From assembly GCF_009914755.1 (NCBI RefSeq), contig NC_060947.1: DNA of 64,000 nucleotides; one strand, written 5' to 3'. Under the pieces are notes generated by a model that was not told the DNA's origin, searched no databases, and saw nothing but the letters and a program-made list of their open reading frames with translations. The stretch comes from the human T2T-CHM13v2.0 reference genome, Homo sapiens. Below, piece after piece: positions 5,368-55,376 of this stretch. Numbering within the stretch: the stretch's first letter is position 1; each line of letters starts with the position of its first letter. The translations under genes were made by a program, and so were the position numbers.

Positions 5368-5742
<375 letters not shown>

Positions 5743-7128
5743 TTAGAATTCAAGTGTCCCTGTTCAGCATTCTTTCCACCATAATCTACAGCTAGTCTTT
5801 TCTTCATTTATTTTTCTGGGCCTCTTTAAGAATTATTTTTTAAATAAATATTTACTCTTTGATCAGATTCTCTGCCTTCATGCCATTTTCCAGAATTTGC
5901 TTTGTGAACCCAAAATCTTTCGATAAACTGTACATACGCCATGTGTTTTGATGGTTATATTGAGCAAAGTCATCCTTGTTTGATATAGTTATTTCAGTTG
6001 TGAGAAGCAGGTGATGGGTTTTGGATTGACTCAGTAATGCTCCACACCTTCTCGGCCCTACCACTTTATTCCTGGGAAAGCTGAAGACCTAGGTTTTATC
6101 TGGGTCTCAAAAGCACTATCATTAACACAGCAGTTTCTGTGTCTGTGCCCCTTACACTGCCCTGATTCCAAAACCCAGCTAGATTGTTTATTTGCTGGAC
6201 AAAAACATATTTCCATCAACAGCCAAGAAAATTATACCTTACTTGATCTTTGTATAGATTAATTTCTGAGAAAGCCTATGATCATGTGGCTTTCAAATTT
6301 TTCTCCACAGTTGAACAGTACAGTTGCCAGTGAACTCTCCTATTTGGAATCAGAGGAGCATTGACATGAGGGAGGCAGCAAGGACCTTCTGGAACACCTT
6401 GTTAAGTTTCATGTCATTAATTTTCAGCTTTGCAACACATCCATGCGGCCATTTGGAGTCTGACGTGAAGTATGTTATTCCTGCAAAATGGCAGGTTTTC
6501 GAAAACATGCTGGGCAGCTATGACATTGTTAGGAGTTCTGATACATTTGGAGCGAATGATCTGATTTGAATCTGTATCCCAGCCTCTGGGGGTTTACCCA
6601 TTGCACATCTTAGCAGTGAAACCCTATATAGTGATTCAAAATCACTTCCTAAGCTTTAGAACAAACAAGATTAAGGAGTTCAGTTTGTTTCTTGCCTATC
6701 AGAGAACGGTTGATGACTTGGTAAGTAATAACTTGAGCAGGAAAGAAAGGAGAAGGAATTCTATTTGTTAACATATCCCAATCTGTGCAAATAATCAATT
6801 TTGAACCAAGGCCAATTTTATGGTGGGGCTTCTGATGCAAGGGAACAAGAGTTTTCCCAGGCAGATTCAACAAAGTCAGCTACAGTTGGATTCACTCAGC
6901 ATTACTTGCAAGAAAAAAAAAAAAAAAAACTCAAAACAAATGATCATTGACACTAAATTTGGCCACTATACATAGATAGATGTAGACCAAACTTTGAAAG
7001 GACTGCCAGTGATATGTCCCCTCTCACAATCTCCAATTCAGGGATAAAATGAGAAGGTTGACTGCTGTGATTTTCCACATTTTTTTTTCCACAGTGACAC
7101 ACAAGCAAGGAACACACTCCATCGAGGA

Positions 7129-16630: not shown

Positions 16631-17300
16631 ACATCTGTTTTGTTTTGTTTTTTGACTTTTTAATAATGGTCATTCTGACTGGTGAGATTTCTGAAAGAAC
16701 TAAAAATCGAACTACCATTTGACCCAGTAATCCCCCTACTGGGTATATACCCAAGGAAAAATAAATAATTCTACCAAAAAGACACATGCACTTGTATATT
16801 TCTCACAGCACTATTCATAATAGTAAAGACGTGGAATCAAACTAGATGCCCTTCAATGGTGGATTGGTACATATATATCATGTATATATTGGTACATATA
16901 CACCATGGAATACTACACAACCGTAAAAAGAAATGAAATCATGCCTGTTGTAGCAACATGGATGCAGCTGGAGGCCATCATCCTAAGCAAATTAATGTCC
17001 AAACAGAAAACCAATACTGCATGTTGTCACTTGTAAGTGGAAGCTAAACGCTGGGTACGCAGAAACACAGAGATGGGAACAATAGGCACTGGAGACTCCA
17101 AAAGTAGGGGAGGAAGGGAGAGGGACAAAGATTGAAAAATTACCTATTAAGTACTATGTTCACTATTTGGGTGATGGGTTCAATAGAACCCCAAATCTCA
17201 ACATCATGCAATATACCCATGTAACAAATCTGCACATGTACCCACTGAATCTAAAATTTAAAAAGAAAAGAATGAACAGCAAAAATAAACAAAAATAAGG
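16631..17300 (+). mobile_element. L1PA/PB 3' end with inverted 5' segment (16631-16688)
   Basis: Sense L1 from gaactaaaaatcgaactaccatttgaccc to A-rich tail; preceded by antisense acatctg...gactttttaataatggtcattctgactggtgaga. Confidence 0.9.
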
Positions 17301-21614: not shown

Positions 21615-22092
21615 TTCATAATGTCCAAAAGATGGAAACAACCCAAATGTCCATCAACTAATGGCTGGATAAACAAAATGTAGCATGTCCATACAATGGA
21701 ATATTATTCAGTCATCAAACGGAATGAGGTACTGATACGTGCTACATGTGAGAATTATAAACAGTACTAAGGCTAAGTGAAAGAAGCCAATCACAAAAGG
21801 ACACATATTATAAGTCCACCTATGAAAGTCCAGAATAAGCAAATTCATTCAAACAGAAAGCAGATTAGCAGTTGCTTAGGGCTGGTGGGGAGGGAAGTCA
21901 CAGTGAACAGGGATAGTGGCATGATAGCTGAAGGGTTTGGGCTTCTTTTTTGACATGTTAATGTTCTAAAACTGACTGTGGTAATGGTGGCAAAATTCTG
22001 TGAATATACTAAAACCATTGAATTGTATGCCTTAAATGGGTGAATTGTATGGTACTATATGTGAATTATATCTCAATATAGTTGTTTTTAAA
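21615..22092 (+). mobile_element. L1MB-type 3' end
   Basis: ggaaacaacccaaatgtccatcaact...ctaagtgaaagaagccaatcacaaaagg...gtgaattatatctcaat. Confidence 0.85.
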
Positions 22093-27029: not shown

Positions 27030-27411
27030 ATATATTTTTTTTAATTTTAACTTTTATTTTAAGTTCTGGGGTACATGAGCAGGATGTGTAGGTTTGTTAC
27101 ATACGTAAATGTGTGCCATGGTGGTTTGCTGCACAGATCAACCCATCACCAAGGTATTATATTAAGCCCAGCATGCACTAGCTATTTTTCCAAATGCTCT
27201 CCCTCCCCCAACCCCACCCCCCAACAGGCCCCAGTGTGTGTTGTTCCCCTCCCTGTGTCCATGTGTTCTCATTGTTCCGCTCCCACTTATAAGTGAGCAC
27301 ATGCGATGTTTGATTTTCTGTTCCTGTGCTACTTTGCTGAGGATAATGGCTTCCAGCTCCATCCATGTACCTGCAAAGGACATGCTCTCGTTCCTTTTTA
27401 TGGCTGCAAAG
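27030..27411 (-). mobile_element. 5'-truncated L1PA 3' end
   Basis: L1PA 3'UTR (cccagtgtgtgttgttcccctccctgtgtccatgtgttctc...); TSD tatgcatggattttta (27011-27026) / tacacatggattttta (27412-27427). Confidence 0.95.
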
Positions 27412-27894
27412 TACACATGGATTTTTAAAACAGCAATGACATATAGTTATGTTGTTTAAAGAGTGAGAATATTTTATCACAAAAATAAGCAAGTTTTATA
27501 AAATAAAAAGTATTAAATAATGAATGCAAGGAAGAACCAGGACAATATGGTGAGGGCACCACAATAAAGTTTTCTACTTTGTATTCTCTTGACAGGTATT
27601 AAAACCTGTTCCTGTGGTATCTGTCCTTGCTCTGGGAGATGCGACCAACTCATTAGTGTTTATTAACAACCAACTCAGCAACAAAAAATGCTCTCAGATG
27701 TCAACACATGTCACATGTGGAGTAAGCACTTTATTACCAGCAAAGGGGATGAGAATCATAAAATGTATGCCAAAGTATCTGCAGTATGTTTTTGGATGAT
27801 GACGAAAATGAAAAAGAAGACATGGCAGGAGAAAAGGAAGGGAAGACAAATGCATGCCCTAGATGTCATTCTCTTTGAGAAAACTAGGGCTTTC

Positions 27895-51592: not shown

Positions 51593-53093
51593 TGTAAGTA
51601 ACAAAAGCAGCTCTCCAAAGGCAGGGCTGCTTGGCCTTTGGAAGCAGTTTCTCCAGGCAAGCACATATCTGAGCCTGGAGGAGGCTCAGTAAACTCAAGC
51701 TGGGACCACGTGAAAAAAAAAAAAAAAAAAATTCTCACCAGAAGACTGGTGAGAAACGCCCAAGATGAGGGGAAAGGAGTGAGAGGAATGTCCTGGTGGT
51801 TGTTGTACAGATTTCAAAGGGTATACATCCAAAGGCCAAAGCATAGACTGTCCCAAGTCAAACTCCACTTAACATAGCAAAGGAAGAAGAATGGCTTCAT
51901 ATTGTAAGAAATGTATCTTTTCTCCTTTGAGGTTCACAACTATGCAATTATAGTGCTCTCTCTCTCTCCTCATCACTGTCACCTTAGGCCTCACAGGCAC
52001 CTTCTCATATTCACTGGGGGCTGTGGTACCTGACTCCCAAGTTTCCTCTTGGCCACAAGCCCCACCTTCACCCCAGGTGACTTCAACACACATGTGGACA
52101 ACATATCCAACTTCCGGCCTCTGAGTTCCTTGCTCTCTTCATCTCCAAAGATATTTACCTTTACATACCCACTTTGACCACTAGAGTTTGTTCTCACCTG
52201 GAACAGTTCAACTCTGAAATCTTAAATTGAAGCAGCCTACTTTCTGAGCACTAGTTTCCTCGGCCTTTTATTCTCACTCTTCTGGAACTTAGAAACTAGA
52301 AGAGTCAGGAGGCTATGAAGTCTCCATTAAGTCTATCGATCAGGCCACACTTGTCTTCCATCTTGGATACCATGGTCCCTGACTTCAATAATTATTTTAC
52401 GAATATTCTTAACAACTTTGCCTCTTCTTTCCATTTTTCCCACCTGGCAACCCCCTAACTCCAGATCAACATGGCAGAACATATGTCATGGAATCATATG
52501 GCCTGGCACTACTAGTTATATTGTCCAACCTCACTTGGGTCTTCAACCATGCTCAACAACATTATTGTGTACTAATACTATGTGTCCTAATCCAATTTCT
52601 TTCCCATTCCTCAATACAGCTCATTTAATCCTTTCATCTGTTTCCTCAAGCTTGATTTTACTACCTGTCAAAATATAGCACCTGTTTAAATCCCCTTCAT
52701 CTGCCATTCTGCAGATCCACATAACTATTTATTATTCTCAGAAGAAATCAGGTCTCTCTTGCCAGTGGGACTTTGCACATGCTGTTTCCTCTTCATGGAA
52801 CGCCTTTCTCCTGTGCTGGTAGAAAGTTACCTCCCCTTAAGCCTAGATAGCATCTCTCACAGAATGCTTTACCTTACACCCCGTCCCTTGCATCACCTTG
52901 CATCATGGTTTCCTCAAAATCCAACCATGTCAACCCATAAACTGCCAGACTCTCCTTGAAAGCAGGGACCATTCCTGTTCATTATTGGAGCCCGATACAC
53001 AACGTAGAGTAGTTTAAGGCATAGTTCTCAACCCGTGTTTGATGAATGATTAAACATAGAGTCATTAAACCCTTGTAAAGAAAGCAGTGAGTT

Positions 53094-53315
53094 GCAACCT
53101 CTGCCTCCCGGGTTCAAACAGTTCTCCTGCCTCAGCCTCCCCAGTAGCTGGGATTACAGGCACCCATCCTCATGCCTGGCTAATTTTTGTATTGTTGTAG
53201 AGATGGGGCTTTGCCATGTTGTCCCGGCTGGTCTCAAACTCCTGATCTCAGGTGATCCTCCCACCTCAGCCTCCCAAAGTACTGGGATTACACGTGTAAG
53301 CCACTGCAACCGGCC
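53094..53315 (-). mobile_element. AluS fragment truncated exactly at the retro-insertion boundary
   Basis: gcaacctctgcctcccgggttcaa...ccactgcaaccggcc; lacks the tail-side ~60 bp and poly(T). Confidence 0.95.
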
Positions 53316-54299
53316 TGTCAAGACAACTTCTGAGGTCTCTTCCTCCTTTTAACTGGGCAGAACCTTGATTGGAACTATTTCACAGGAGCTCAGATGAATG
53401 GCAGAAAAAAAAAACTGCTCATTCATTCTTTTTAAATTGTTAATTCATTACTTTATTTTTAAAAACTCTTTAATTCACTAAAATCATTTATCCTTGAGTC
53501 TTACTCTGGTAGAGAGCAGTGCACAGTGAGACTGACTTTAGAAAGCCAAAGATAGATTTGGCCAGTCCTGCTGTCCTTTCTATTTGCAATGTCTTGTAGG
53601 TATTAGTGGGAGTGAAAGAGCCTACCTGCAATTTTAGAGTGGCTATATATCCATTTGTTCAAGATTCTAGTATCCTGGGGCTGATCCTCACCTGTTTAGC
53701 TCCATAAGAAAGTGATGATTGTAAAAGTGACTGTCCAGGCAGGGTGTGGTCCACAGAAAGTGAAATGCTGCAAATTGCTTTAAAAACATTTTACTGCGGA
53801 GATCTGAATTGAAGGGTGATAGAGCAATTTGGTGTTGCTGAAAGAGATGATCATGTAAAAGCATAATATCTATGGTAATTCTTTTCAAAGCAGCATGGAG
53901 TGTGTCTTTGCTAATTTAGATCACATATCTGGTCTTGGTATCAATGATCAGTGCTTGGTTATGTGAGGCACCTACTGAATTTCTTGTGCTTGACACTAGG
54001 ACAGTTACAGATTGCAAATATCTATACAACCTTAGTTTCCTGACTCTATGTGCCATGTTTCTGCAATGGGAGTCTTAGATGTTTAAAATGACTGATAGTA
54101 TATGGAGGTGCTAAAAGCATCACTGCCAATTCCTAATATTTGGGGGCTCAAAGAATTGTTTTTACTTCCACTTTCATATCTGCACAGTGATCCACTCAAC
54201 TGCCACCCTATGGGGGTTCTGTCTCTGTACGTCTTCATCAGTCCTATCACGTCCTTCATCATGTCAAAATTTCAAAATAAAATTAAATAATGCTAAAAA
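53094..54299 (+). other. 5'-truncated retrotransposed non-TE transcript (retrocopy or orphan transduction)
   Basis: 17-bp TSD aaagaaagcagtgagtt (53077-53093) / aaagaaagcggtgagtt (54300-54316); AATAAA 54276-54281, A run from 54295. Confidence 0.8.
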
Positions 54300-54559
54300 A
54301 AAGAAAGCGGTGAGTTAAATCTAAAATTATTTAGAAGAGCATGTTATACTTTAAAGGTATATAATCTCTTTTCTTCCCACTTCAGATAGTTAACTTCTAA
54401 TTACCTTTCAAGATTTAACAAGTGTTAACTCTTCCAAAAACCTCTCCCAGATCCCCAGGGCTACTCTTCAGGGCTACCCTTGCCCTCTGCACTAACATCA
54501 CTCATTGTATTGTAATTATATGCTTACATGTTGGGCTTTCTATCTGAAGTATGAGTGTT

Positions 54560-54778
54560 GTTTTTTCAATATATTTTTTTATTTAAATAGCTTTTGGTGT
54601 ACACGTGGCTTTTGGTTACGTGGATGAATTCTATAGTGGTGAATTCTGAGATATTAGTGCACCTGTCACCTGAGTAGTGTACACTGTAACTAATGTATAG
54701 TTATTTATCCCTGCCCCCCCACCCTCCCCGTTCTGAGTCTCTAAAGTCCATTATATGACTCTGTATGCCTTTGCAGTA
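54560..54778 (-). mobile_element. Short L1PB-like 3' end
   Basis: ttttggttacgtggatgaattctatagtggtgaattctgaga; TSD aagtatgagtgtt (54547-54559) / aagtgtgagtgtt (54779-54791). Confidence 0.85.
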
Positions 54779-54835
54779 AAGTGTGAGTGTTCTGAAGGGC
54801 AACACATGTGTTCTACATTTAAATCTGTATCAATG

Positions 54836-55376
54836 TGTTAGGTTCTCAAGATCAAGCCCAGGTTCAATAATCTGCTAGGAAGACTCAGTGGATTTAACAA
54901 ATTGTTGCACTCACAACTATAATTTATTACAACAAAAGGATACAAAGCAAAACCAGCCTAGGGAAAAAGCACATGAGGTAAAGTCCAGGAAGAACCAGGT
55001 GAGAGCCTCCAAGAGTCCTCTCCCAGTAAAGTCACGTAAAACATGCTAAATTCTCACAGCAACAAGTTGTGACAACACATGGGAAATGTCATCTACTAGG
55101 GAAGCTCATTAGACTCAGTGCCAAGGGTTTTTGGAGAGAGTTGGTCATGTAGACACTTTCTGCCAAGCACATACCAAAATGTCAAAAACCCCAGAGGAAA
55201 GCAGGTGTTTGGTAAAAATGACAGTGTTTGTACAAATGGCTTAGGCACCAAGAGACACTTTATCAATTAAAGAATGGTGGAAACCCTCCTGAAAGACGAA
55301 TTCCCAGATGCCAGCCAAGGCCCAACCATGTCAACAGATAGCAGTCAGGCCTACTCTGCTAACTCTTTTCTGCACA
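54836..55376 (-). mobile_element. MER68/MER77-like ERVL solo LTR
   Basis: Reverse complement starts tgtgcagaaaagagttagc...aggcctga; atttattacaacaaaaggatacaaagc. Confidence 0.7.

What the first reader, a model, noticed from the sequence alone, without database searches (positions are those of the whole stretch)
53077..54316. Hidden 1.2-kb retrotransposed non-TE RNA with a 17-bp TSD (retrocopy or orphan 3' transduction)
Seen: aaagaaagcagtgagtt (53077-53093) recurs as aaagaaagcggtgagtt (54300-54316), differing by one CpG-type change. Just before the second copy are AATAAA (54276-54281), ATTAAA and an A run. The left flank (gt|aaag) resembles an L1 endonuclease site. An antisense AluS is cut off precisely at the left TSD. 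Established: TSD + poly(A) signal + A tail + 5' truncation are the hallmarks of L1-mediated target-primed reverse transcription. Inference: ~1 kb of apparently unique sequence was copied here from another locus after the AluS period; repeat masking would show only a broken Alu.
Basis: partly seen in the sequence, partly recalled or inferred. Interest (0 to 1): 0.8.

Follow-up and report, generated by a model that had tools for sequence, protein, structure and literature searches.

The report
Old L1-made retrocopy from chromosome 1
A 1.2-kb stretch in an FGF13 intron is an old, inert reverse-transcribed copy of the tail end of a chromosome 1 transcript, an ordinary kind of event, with one odd extra match at its right-hand junction.

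Summary
The 17-mer lies at 53077-53093 and 54300-54316 (16 of 17 identical; 2 matches found, 0.00 expected). The segment between the repeats has one paralog in the genome, G000:C1:243363595-243364798, + strand. It is 93.6% identical over 982 aligned non-Alu bases. The chr1 locus carries the same antisense Alu at full length. The chrX copy starts inside that Alu, exactly at the left repeat. Homology ends 15 nt after a shared AATAAA, and chr1 continues with a GU-rich stretch.

This is a 5'-truncated, L1-type (target-primed) retrocopy of the 3' end of a chr1 transcript. It matches the published "class 1 templated sequence insertion". No L1 lies within 20 kb upstream of the source, so an orphan transduction is unlikely. 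The parent transcript could not be named; no large ORF or Pfam hit lies in the 20 kb upstream of the source. The kind is known and no function is evident.

One thing is unexplained. A 15-mer lies 26 nt past the end of homology in both loci, in register (shuffle p about 1e-5). Only 3 A's are untemplated. This allows a less usual, base-pair-anchored priming on a read-through RNA.

The parts
53077..53093 (+). Left target-site duplication (17 nt). Base 53093 (T) could equally be the first base of the insert, giving 1 nt of junction microhomology.
53093..53315 (-). 5'-truncated start of the retrocopy: an Alu that is antisense in the copied RNA. It lacks its own 3' part and A tail, which are present in the chr1 source (L002 about 1175-1281).
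   Evidence: Identity to the chr1 copy is 179 of 218 (82.1%) over 53093-53310.
53316..54296 (+). Single-copy body of the retrocopy, colinear with G000:C1 up to 243364798. No intron loss is visible. The longest ATG ORF is 62 aa and there is no Rfam family.
   Evidence: (919 of 982 = 93.6%, K2P 0.067, over 53311-54296)
54276..54281 (+). AATAAA poly(A) signal, shared with the chr1 source (L002 2464-2469). The last shared base, 54296, lies 15 nt after it.
54297..54299 (+). The only 3 A's that neither the source nor the target repeat accounts for. They are either the remnant of a poly(A) tail or, with one T>A change, no tail at all.
54300..54316 (+). Right target-site duplication (17 nt)
54322..54336 (+). 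Target-flank 15-mer TAAAATTATTTAGAA, identical to chr1 243364824-243364838. In both loci it starts 26 nt after TAATGCTA, so it is in register. Weaker similarity continues to 54379.

Best explanation
The stretch 53094-54299 is a fixed, 5'-truncated retrocopy made by the LINE-1 machinery through target-primed reverse transcription.

Inferred sequence of events. An RNA was transcribed from the + strand of chr1 (G000:C1, ending near 243364798). It carried an antisense Alu and ended at an AATAAA-type poly(A) site. L1 ORF2p took up this RNA in trans. The bottom strand of an FGF13 intron was nicked at CTTT/A. Its T-rich 3' end primed cDNA synthesis at the RNA's 3' end. Synthesis or attachment stopped inside the Alu. 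A second nick 17 nt downstream produced the 17-bp duplication.

Shown: the donor locus, the full Alu at the donor, the end of homology at the cleavage distance, and the duplication. Inferred: the RNA intermediate and the enzyme.

The copy lies antisense to FGF13. It has no ORF longer than 62 aa and no known RNA family, so it is most likely inert. Divergence of K2P 0.067 suggests an age of roughly 30 million years. That figure uses a recalled neutral rate of about 1.1e-9 per site per year and is rough.
For: - Duplication: 17-bp direct repeat, 16 of 17 identical, 0.00 expected by chance.
- Donor: one paralog in 3.1 Gb (2 of 2 scored candidates are self and chr1). The full alignment runs from window 53093 to 54296 against L002 1282-2485.
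- Direction: chr1 holds the complete antisense Alu and its T-rich tail upstream of the point where chrX starts. The direction is therefore chr1 to chrX.
- 3' end: homology ends 15 nt after the shared AATAAA. chr1 then continues with TTTGTGGATTTTT, a GU/U-rich stretch placed like a downstream element.
- Nick site: CTTT/A on the primed strand, against the consensus TTTT/A (consensus from passages of PMC5110952 and PMC12016303).
- Divergence: 93.6% in unique sequence. The Alu part is 82.1%, and 14 of its 39 differences are 7 adjacent CA/TG pairs, the mark of CpG decay.
- Published class: PMC5110952 (parts 1-2 read) describes exactly this kind. Class 1 templated insertions have a TSD of at least 5 bp, AATAAA 10-20 (abstract: 10-30) nt before the A tract, a TTTT/A site, and donors that include non-annotated intergenic or intronic sequence.
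Against: - Tail: only 3 untemplated A's remain (54297-54299). New insertions carry tails with a median of 38 nt (PMC12016303 passage), and the class definition names 10-40 A.
- RNA intermediate: the copy is colinear with the genomic donor, so no intron loss proves an RNA step.
- Nick site: it is one base off the consensus.
- Parent transcript: it could not be named, and use of the chr1 poly(A) site could not be checked, because no annotation or expression data were available.
- Extra match: the target flank shares an in-register 15-mer with chr1 sequence beyond the cleavage site. At least 15 in register occurred in 2 of 200000 shuffles. Complex AT-rich matches of 15 nt or more numbered 3 in about 2e9 position pairs of window against 31 kb of chr1. 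Plain poly(A) priming does not predict this.
- Not available: no primate orthologs, so no empty site could be shown.
Confidence: 0.85

Rival explanations
1. Anchored internal priming. This is still an L1-type staggered break and reverse transcription, but the template was a chr1 RNA that read through the AATAAA site. The AT-rich target flank (bottom strand) base-paired with the RNA at the 15-mer (22 of 25 counting the next bases). The 22-nt primer end (TSD plus AAATC) lay across an equal-sized bubble. Synthesis started right after GCUAAUAA. There was then no poly(A) tail. The A run is the source's AATAA plus the repeat's AAA, with one later T>A change.
For: - The 15-mer is 26 nt past TAATGCTA in both loci, with shift 0.
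- In-register matches (within 3 nt) of 15 or more arose in 2 of 200000 shuffles.
- The empirical rate of such complex AT-rich 15-mers is 3 per about 2e9 position pairs.
- Both flanks are single-copy at the search's sensitivity: the chrX flank matches only itself, and the first 186 nt of the chr1 flank match only themselves.
- The 15-mer occurs 113 times in the genome, against 90 for the reversed control, so it is not a repeat-family word.
- The predicted product, GCTAATAA followed by AAAGAAAG, has exactly the observed length and differs at one base (read).
- BLAST carries the alignment on to 54379, at 74% over 58 nt. This was the best hit of the reconstructed empty site against 21 kb of chr1, E 0.011.
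Against: - The junction falls 15 nt after AATAAA, with a GU-rich stretch behind it. That is what a normally cleaved, polyadenylated RNA predicts. Under this rival it is a coincidence (AATAAA occurs once in the 1.2-kb copy).
- The model needs a T>A change.
- It needs extension from a primer end that does not pair with the template.
- The anchor is a weak, almost all-A/U duplex.
- I found no report of this geometry. Searches were not aimed at it specifically, so this is not evidence that it is unpublished.
Confidence: 0.2
2. Orphan 3' transduction. An L1 or SVA upstream of the chr1 locus read through its own poly(A) signal to the AATAAA at 243364778-83. The insertion was truncated so severely that only the transduced flank remains.
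For: Structurally the two cannot be told apart from the chrX copy alone: TSD, poly(A) signal and 5' truncation would look the same.
Against: - A full-length L1 taken from chr2 (L008) was used as a probe against chr1 243343814-243374801. It gave only A-run matches (6 HSPs, all at probe 6916-6946). The same probe found old L1 pieces in the window at 72-77% identity, which serves as a positive control.
- None of 137 stop-to-stop ORFs of 55 aa or more from the 20 kb upstream reached a Pfam cut-off. None matched a reverse transcriptase, endonuclease or L1 ORF1 domain.
- The CT-rich run at L003 about 5520-6070 is the degenerated tail of an antisense Alu, not an SVA hexamer array.
- SVA was not sought by homology.
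- A source element that was polymorphic and has since been lost, or one more than 20 kb away, is not excluded.
Confidence: 0.04
3. DNA-level copy. The segment was copied from chr1 DNA, as a double-strand-break patch or by replication template switching using microhomology, with no RNA step.
For: The copy is colinear with genomic DNA, with no intron loss. A 15-mer of donor-flank identity sits near the right junction.
Against: - The 17-bp duplication at a T-rich/A nick site is the mark of L1 endonuclease.
- The copy ends at a poly(A) cleavage position.
- The 22 nt of target between the junction and the 15-mer are retained. Flap removal in homology-primed DNA synthesis would delete them.
- The left junction has only 1 nt of microhomology. 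The longest in-register match of the left flanks is 4 nt.
- PMC5110952 reports that such patches lack TSDs and poly(A) signals (its class 2).
Confidence: 0.04
4. Chance repeat: the two 17-mers are unrelated and nothing was inserted.
For: None.
Against: Shuffles give 0.00 expected matches. The repeats bracket, to the base, a segment that has one 93%-identical donor elsewhere.
Confidence: 0.01

Closest known systems
Class 1 templated sequence insertions (Onozawa and Aplan; PMC5110952, parts 1-2 of the text read)
   Same: Non-TE sequence templated from a distant locus. TSD of at least 5 bp. AATAAA 10-30 nt before the A tract. T-rich/A insertion site. Donors include non-annotated intergenic or intronic sequence. 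Attributed to L1 ORF2p acting in trans.
   Different: Those are polymorphic, young insertions with 10-40 untemplated A's. This one is fixed in the reference, about 6.7% diverged from its donor, and keeps only 3 untemplated A's. It also shows an in-register donor-flank/target-flank 15-mer, which that description does not mention.
Processed pseudogenes / mRNA retrocopies made by L1 in trans (abstract of PMC2912911; passages of PMC12016303)
   Same: 5' truncation, a normal-length TSD, minimal 5' microhomology (1 nt), poly(A) signal, and an endonuclease-type site.
   Different: No coding sequence and no spliced exon junctions. None of 137 ORFs upstream of the donor reached a Pfam cut-off, and the longest ATG ORF in the copy is 62 aa. 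Protein-based retrocopy catalogues would therefore miss it. That last point is my inference; no catalogue was consulted.
Orphan L1/SVA 3' transductions (search listing only: PMC7058536, PMC12593883)
   Same: Unique sequence with TSD and poly(A) signal, and no TE sequence of the mobilising element.
   Different: They require a source element just upstream of the donor. None was found within 20 kb.
Twin priming / 5' inversion of L1 insertions (passage of PMC12016303; abstract of PMC2912911)
   Same: The top-strand 3' overhang of the target (…GCAGTGA…) is complementary to the donor RNA (TCACTGC) right at the truncation point. This is the pairing geometry that twin priming uses.
   Different: No inverted segment is present. 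The 7-mer complementarity is only mildly unusual: 973 of 100000 shuffles reach 7 or more.

Membership tests
L1-mediated retrocopy / class 1 templated sequence insertion | Target-site duplication of at least 5 bp flanking the insert | tested here: met
   17 bp, 16 of 17 identical, 0.00 expected by chance
L1-mediated retrocopy / class 1 templated sequence insertion | Intact donor locus elsewhere in the genome | tested here: met
   G000:C1:243363595-243364798, 93.6% over unique sequence, and the only paralog
L1-mediated retrocopy / class 1 templated sequence insertion | Poly(A) signal 10-30 nt upstream of the 3' end of the copied sequence | tested here: met
   AATAAA at 54276-54281. The last donor-matching base, 54296, is 15 nt later.
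L1-mediated retrocopy / class 1 templated sequence insertion | Untemplated A tract (10-40 A when new) | tested here: inconclusive
   Only 3 A's (54297-54299) are unaccounted for. Tail shrinkage over about 30 My is possible, but so is the absence of a tail.
L1-mediated retrocopy / class 1 templated sequence insertion | Insertion at an L1 endonuclease site (TTTT/A and close variants) | tested here: inconclusive
   The nicked strand reads CTTT/A, one base off. It is not among the three variants counted in PMC12016303 (TTTT/A, TTTT/G, TTTC/A).
L1-mediated retrocopy / class 1 templated sequence insertion | RNA intermediate (intron loss or transcript-defined ends) | tested here: inconclusive
   The 3' end coincides with a predicted cleavage site. 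There is no intron in the copied stretch, so no splice evidence.
Processed pseudogene of a protein-coding gene | Homology to spliced coding exons of a parent gene | tested here: not met
   No ORF above 62 aa in the copy. None of 137 ORFs in the 20 kb upstream of the donor is above a Pfam cut-off. The nearest large coding ORF found (BTB + C2H2, 533 aa) lies about 105 kb downstream of the donor.
Orphan 3' transduction | L1 or SVA source element immediately upstream of the donor, in the same orientation | tested here: not met
   The L1 DNA probe gives only A-run hits in 31 kb around the donor, and its positive control in the window worked. No RT, EN or ORF1 domain was found. SVA was not tested by homology.
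Insertion younger than the primate radiation (empty site in some primates) | Orthologous empty site with a single copy of the 17-mer | not testable with these tools
   No primate assemblies are held. Only the window's own genome could be searched.

The most novel reading that the evidence does not exclude
The 3' junction was not set by a poly(A) tail. It was set by base pairing between the AT-rich target flank and a read-through chr1 RNA: a 15-nt exact anchor (22 of 25 with the next bases), 22 nt inside the primer strand. Reverse transcription then started across a symmetric bubble. This would be a hybrid between endonuclease-dependent insertions (with a TSD) and homology-captured templated insertions. 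The top-strand overhang may also have paired with the same RNA at the truncation point, as a kind of abortive twin priming.
Probability: 0.2. Interest if true: 0.5.

Novelty: new member of a known kind. Interest (0 to 1): 0.3.

Why it matters
Mostly as bookkeeping. It shows that unmasked, apparently unique intronic sequence can be an old L1-made copy of a non-coding transcript end. Repeat masking shows only the broken Alu. Protein-based retrocopy screens probably miss it as well; that is my inference. Such copies can mislead paralogy, mapping and conservation analyses in the FGF13 intron and at the chr1 donor.

The one point of wider interest is the in-register match between the donor flank and the target flank. 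If it recurs in other retrocopies, it would mean that base pairing between RNA and target beyond the A tract can steer which RNA L1 copies and where priming starts.

Tried and rejected
I replaced them with 137 stop-to-stop ORF references.
- SVA idea: the strongly C/T-skewed run in L003 is the degenerated tail of an antisense Alu, with no VNTR or SINE-R behind it. Rejected. TRF was run on L004 only.
- Fossil of ADAR editing in the copied Alu: A>G (chr1 to chrX) occurs 10 times, but 7 of these are halves of CA/TG pairs. The remaining 3 A>G compare with 6 G>A. In the unique part the counts are 6 A>G and 7 G>A. Rejected.
- The parent as the 3' UTR of the BTB-zinc-finger gene that I take to be ZBTB18 (name recalled from its position, not tested). 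Its 533-aa ORF lies at C1:243470259-243471857, about 105 kb downstream of the donor. Rejected.
- A second, longer retrocopy that might reveal splicing: the 1170 nt upstream of the donor Alu are single-copy. None found.
- Shared ancient repeat as the cause of the 15-mer: the chrX flank matched only itself at E up to 10. In the chr1 flank only positions 187-275 belong to a high-copy repeat. The search has low sensitivity for very old repeats, so this is not fully excluded.
- Rfam: no family at gathering score in L001 or L002.
- The bacterial promoter/terminator scan is irrelevant to a human intron and was ignored.
- Left flanks in register: longest match 4 nt, nothing there.
- The Alu consensus built from 18 local copies has itself lost CpGs, so its count of 6 of 39 differences at consensus CpG positions is an underestimate. 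I relied on the CA/TG pairs instead.
Full report
**Observation.**
- AAAGAAAGCAGTGAGTT lies at 53077-53093 and AAAGAAAGCGGTGAGTT at 54300-54316.
- The two differ at one base, CA versus CG.
- The repeat finder reports the pair as family D2.
- A pattern search allowing one mismatch finds only these two sites in 64 kb. The expectation from 100 dinucleotide shuffles is 0.00.
- AATAAA is at 54276-54281 and ATTAAA at 54282-54287.
- An 8-A run spans 54295-54302.
- An antisense Alu begins at 53093, the last base of the left repeat, and ends at 53315.
- The hub's mask list has only 53089-53299 masked inside the feature. Repeat masking does show just a broken Alu.

**The donor.**
- I searched the window's own assembly with 53311-54299. 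Two candidates were returned and both were scored: the locus itself, and G000:C1:243363814-243364801, + strand, at 93% identity.
- BLAST of 52500-54900 against the fetched chr1 locus (L002) gives one long alignment that starts at window 53093 = L002 1282. It runs at high identity to the shared TAATGCTAA at 54288-54296.
- In L002 the antisense Alu is complete, at about 1215-1504, and is preceded by its T-rich tail at about 1175-1214. The chrX copy begins inside that Alu.
- The Alu's other end abuts the same unique sequence in both loci, so it is one Alu insertion, copied along with its surroundings. The direction is chr1 to chrX.
- The 1170 nt upstream of the donor Alu are single-copy. There is no second, longer copy.

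**The 3' end.**
- The two loci share AATAAA (L002 2464-2469). They stay aligned for 15 more nucleotides, to 54296 = L002 2485 = C1:243364798.
- After that point chr1 reads TAACATTTTCAAATTTGTGGATTTTT, which contains a GU/U-rich stretch at the usual place of a downstream element.
- chrX instead reads three more A's and then the right repeat.
- This is the architecture of a cleavage and polyadenylation site, and the copy ends where an mRNA would.
- The nick implied on the bottom strand is CTTT/A. That is one base off the TTTT/A consensus given in PMC5110952 and in the hallmark table of PMC12016303.

**Divergence and age.**
- Over 53311-54296 the two copies are identical at 919 of 982 aligned sites (93.6%). 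There are 34 transitions, 29 transversions and 3 gap events, and K2P is 0.067.
- Over the Alu part (53093-53310) identity is 179 of 218 (82.1%) and K2P is 0.21.
- Of the 39 Alu differences, 14 form 7 adjacent pairs with CA in chr1 and TG in chrX. This is the pattern left when the same CpG decays independently on opposite strands.
- With a recalled neutral rate of about 1.1e-9 per site per year, K2P 0.067 corresponds to roughly 30 million years. This is rough and could not be checked against primate orthologs.

**Retrocopy or orphan transduction?**
- I took 20 kb upstream and 10 kb downstream of the donor.
- None of the 137 stop-to-stop ORFs of at least 55 aa from the upstream 20 kb reached a Pfam cut-off. 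Three sub-threshold hits (DUF1258, EspF, APC_r) are noise. None was a reverse transcriptase, endonuclease or L1 ORF1 domain.
- A full-length L1 from chr2 (L008) was used as a DNA probe. It matched the 31 kb only at A runs. It did find old L1 fragments in the window at 72-77% identity, so the probe is sensitive.
- A strongly C/T-skewed run in L003 is the degenerated tail of an antisense Alu, not the hexamer head of an SVA.
- An orphan transduction is therefore unlikely. A lost or more distant source element cannot be excluded, and SVA was not sought by homology.

**What the parent transcript is.** I could not name it.
- The copy has no ATG ORF above 62 aa and no Rfam family.
- A scan of 200 kb downstream of the donor finds a 533-aa + strand ORF at C1:243470259-243471857 with a BTB domain and C2H2 zinc fingers.
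- From its position I take this to be ZBTB18. The name and the hg38 positions are recalled, not tested.
- That places the donor about 105 kb upstream of that gene, in the interval after AKT3.
- The template was therefore probably a non-coding or unannotated transcript.

**What is known.** PMC5110952 (parts 1-2 read) defines class 1 templated sequence insertions by four features:
- a TSD of at least 5 bp;
- a cryptic AATAAA 10-30 nt before the A tract;
- 10-40 untemplated A's;
- insertion at TTTT/A.

It attributes them to L1 ORF2p acting on non-L1 RNA. The abstract of PMC2912911 says that trans-mobilised mRNA retrocopies, including 5'-truncated ones, are not associated with short TSDs. The 17-bp TSD here agrees. 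This feature is an old, fixed member of that kind. It lies antisense to FGF13 (hub table) and nothing suggests a function.

**The unexplained match at the right junction.**
- BLAST did not stop at the junction but ran on to 54379.
- The cause is a 15-mer, TAAAATTATTTAGAA. It lies at 54322-54336 in the chrX target flank, 5 nt beyond the right repeat. It also lies at C1:243364824-243364838 in the chr1 sequence beyond the cleavage site.
- In both loci it starts exactly 26 nt after TAATGCTA (shift 0).
- Among 200000 shuffles, 2 reached an in-register (within 3 nt) exact match of 15 or more.
- Between the whole window and 31 kb of chr1, only 3 complex AT-rich matches of 15 nt or more lie outside Alus and simple runs, this one included. 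That is 3 in about 2e9 position pairs.
- The word occurs 113 times in the genome, against 90 for its reversed control.
- At the search's sensitivity both flanks are single-copy there.
- With the reconstructed empty site as query, this flank match was the best hit in 21 kb of chr1: 74% over 58 nt, E 0.011.

**What the match might mean.**
- Classical priming on a poly(A) tail does not predict it, because a cleaved RNA lacks that sequence.
- An alternative does predict it. The bottom-strand primer could have been held on a read-through RNA by this anchor. Its 22-nt end would then span an equal-length bubble, and synthesis would begin right after GCUAAUAA.
- The product, GCTAATAA joined to AAAGAAAG, has exactly the observed length and differs from the observed A run by one T>A. 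In that reading there was never a poly(A) tail.
- Against the alternative, the junction's position 15 nt after AATAAA would then be a coincidence (one AATAAA in 1.2 kb). The primer end would be unpaired, and the anchor is a weak A/U duplex.
- I put this reading at about 0.2. Primate orthologs would decide it.

**A smaller oddity at the left junction.** The top-strand overhang contains GCAGTGA, which is complementary to TCACTGC of the donor right at the truncation point. Shuffles reach a 7-mer in 973 of 100000 trials, so this is only suggestive.

**Verdict.** It is a new member of a known kind: an L1-made retrocopy of a non-coding transcript end. Interest is low to moderate. The in-register flank match is the only element worth following up.

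Noticed in passing
window 54322-54379 and L002 2511-2565: In-register 15-mer identity between the target flank and the donor sequence beyond the poly(A) site, with weaker similarity after it (74% over 58 nt). Plain poly(A)-primed insertion does not explain it.
   Followed up: yes
window 53084-53090 versus L002 1276-1282: The left repeat contains GCAGTGA, the reverse complement of the donor's TCACTGC, exactly at the 5' truncation point. Shuffles reach 7 or more in 973 of 100000. Possibly abortive twin-priming geometry.
   Followed up: partly
window 53102-53306 (Alu part): All 7 adjacent dinucleotide differences have CA in chr1 and TG in chrX, never the reverse. A two-sided sign test, by my own arithmetic, gives about 0.016. 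This may be a strand bias of CpG decay related to opposite transcription, or it may be chance.
   Followed up: no
chr1 reads AATTTAAT there, so it arose after or during copying and was not a signal in the donor.
   Followed up: yes
window 54456-54481: Tandem 13-nt duplication CAGGGCTACTCTT / CAGGGCTACCCTT just downstream of the insertion (family D5).
   Followed up: no
window 27035-27413 (-), 16686-17040 (+), 21628-21719 (+): Old L1 3'-end fragments at 72-77% identity to a young L1 probe.
   Followed up: no
L011 about 230-1630 (G000:C1:243395030-243396430): About 1.4 kb with all six reading frames open. Repeated G-rich units of about 60 bp are visible at its start. It looks like a minisatellite and lies about 30 kb downstream of the donor.
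   Followed up: no
L003 5520-6070: About 550 bp of C/T-only repeat (CCCTT/CCCCT-like units) grown from the tail of an antisense Alu.
   Followed up: partly
L004 2830-3031: 67-bp unit repeated 3.0 times at 94% match.
   Followed up: no
L018 5458-7056 (G000:C1:243470259-243471857, +): 533-aa open frame with a BTB domain and C2H2 zinc fingers. I take it to be ZBTB18 from its position; the name is recalled. It was used only to place the donor on the map.
   Followed up: partly
L002 2672-2760: High-copy interspersed repeat about 190 nt downstream of the donor's poly(A) site. 717 first-look candidates; all 40 scored matched (1 is the locus itself, 39 elsewhere at 81-89% identity). Family not identified.
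   Followed up: no
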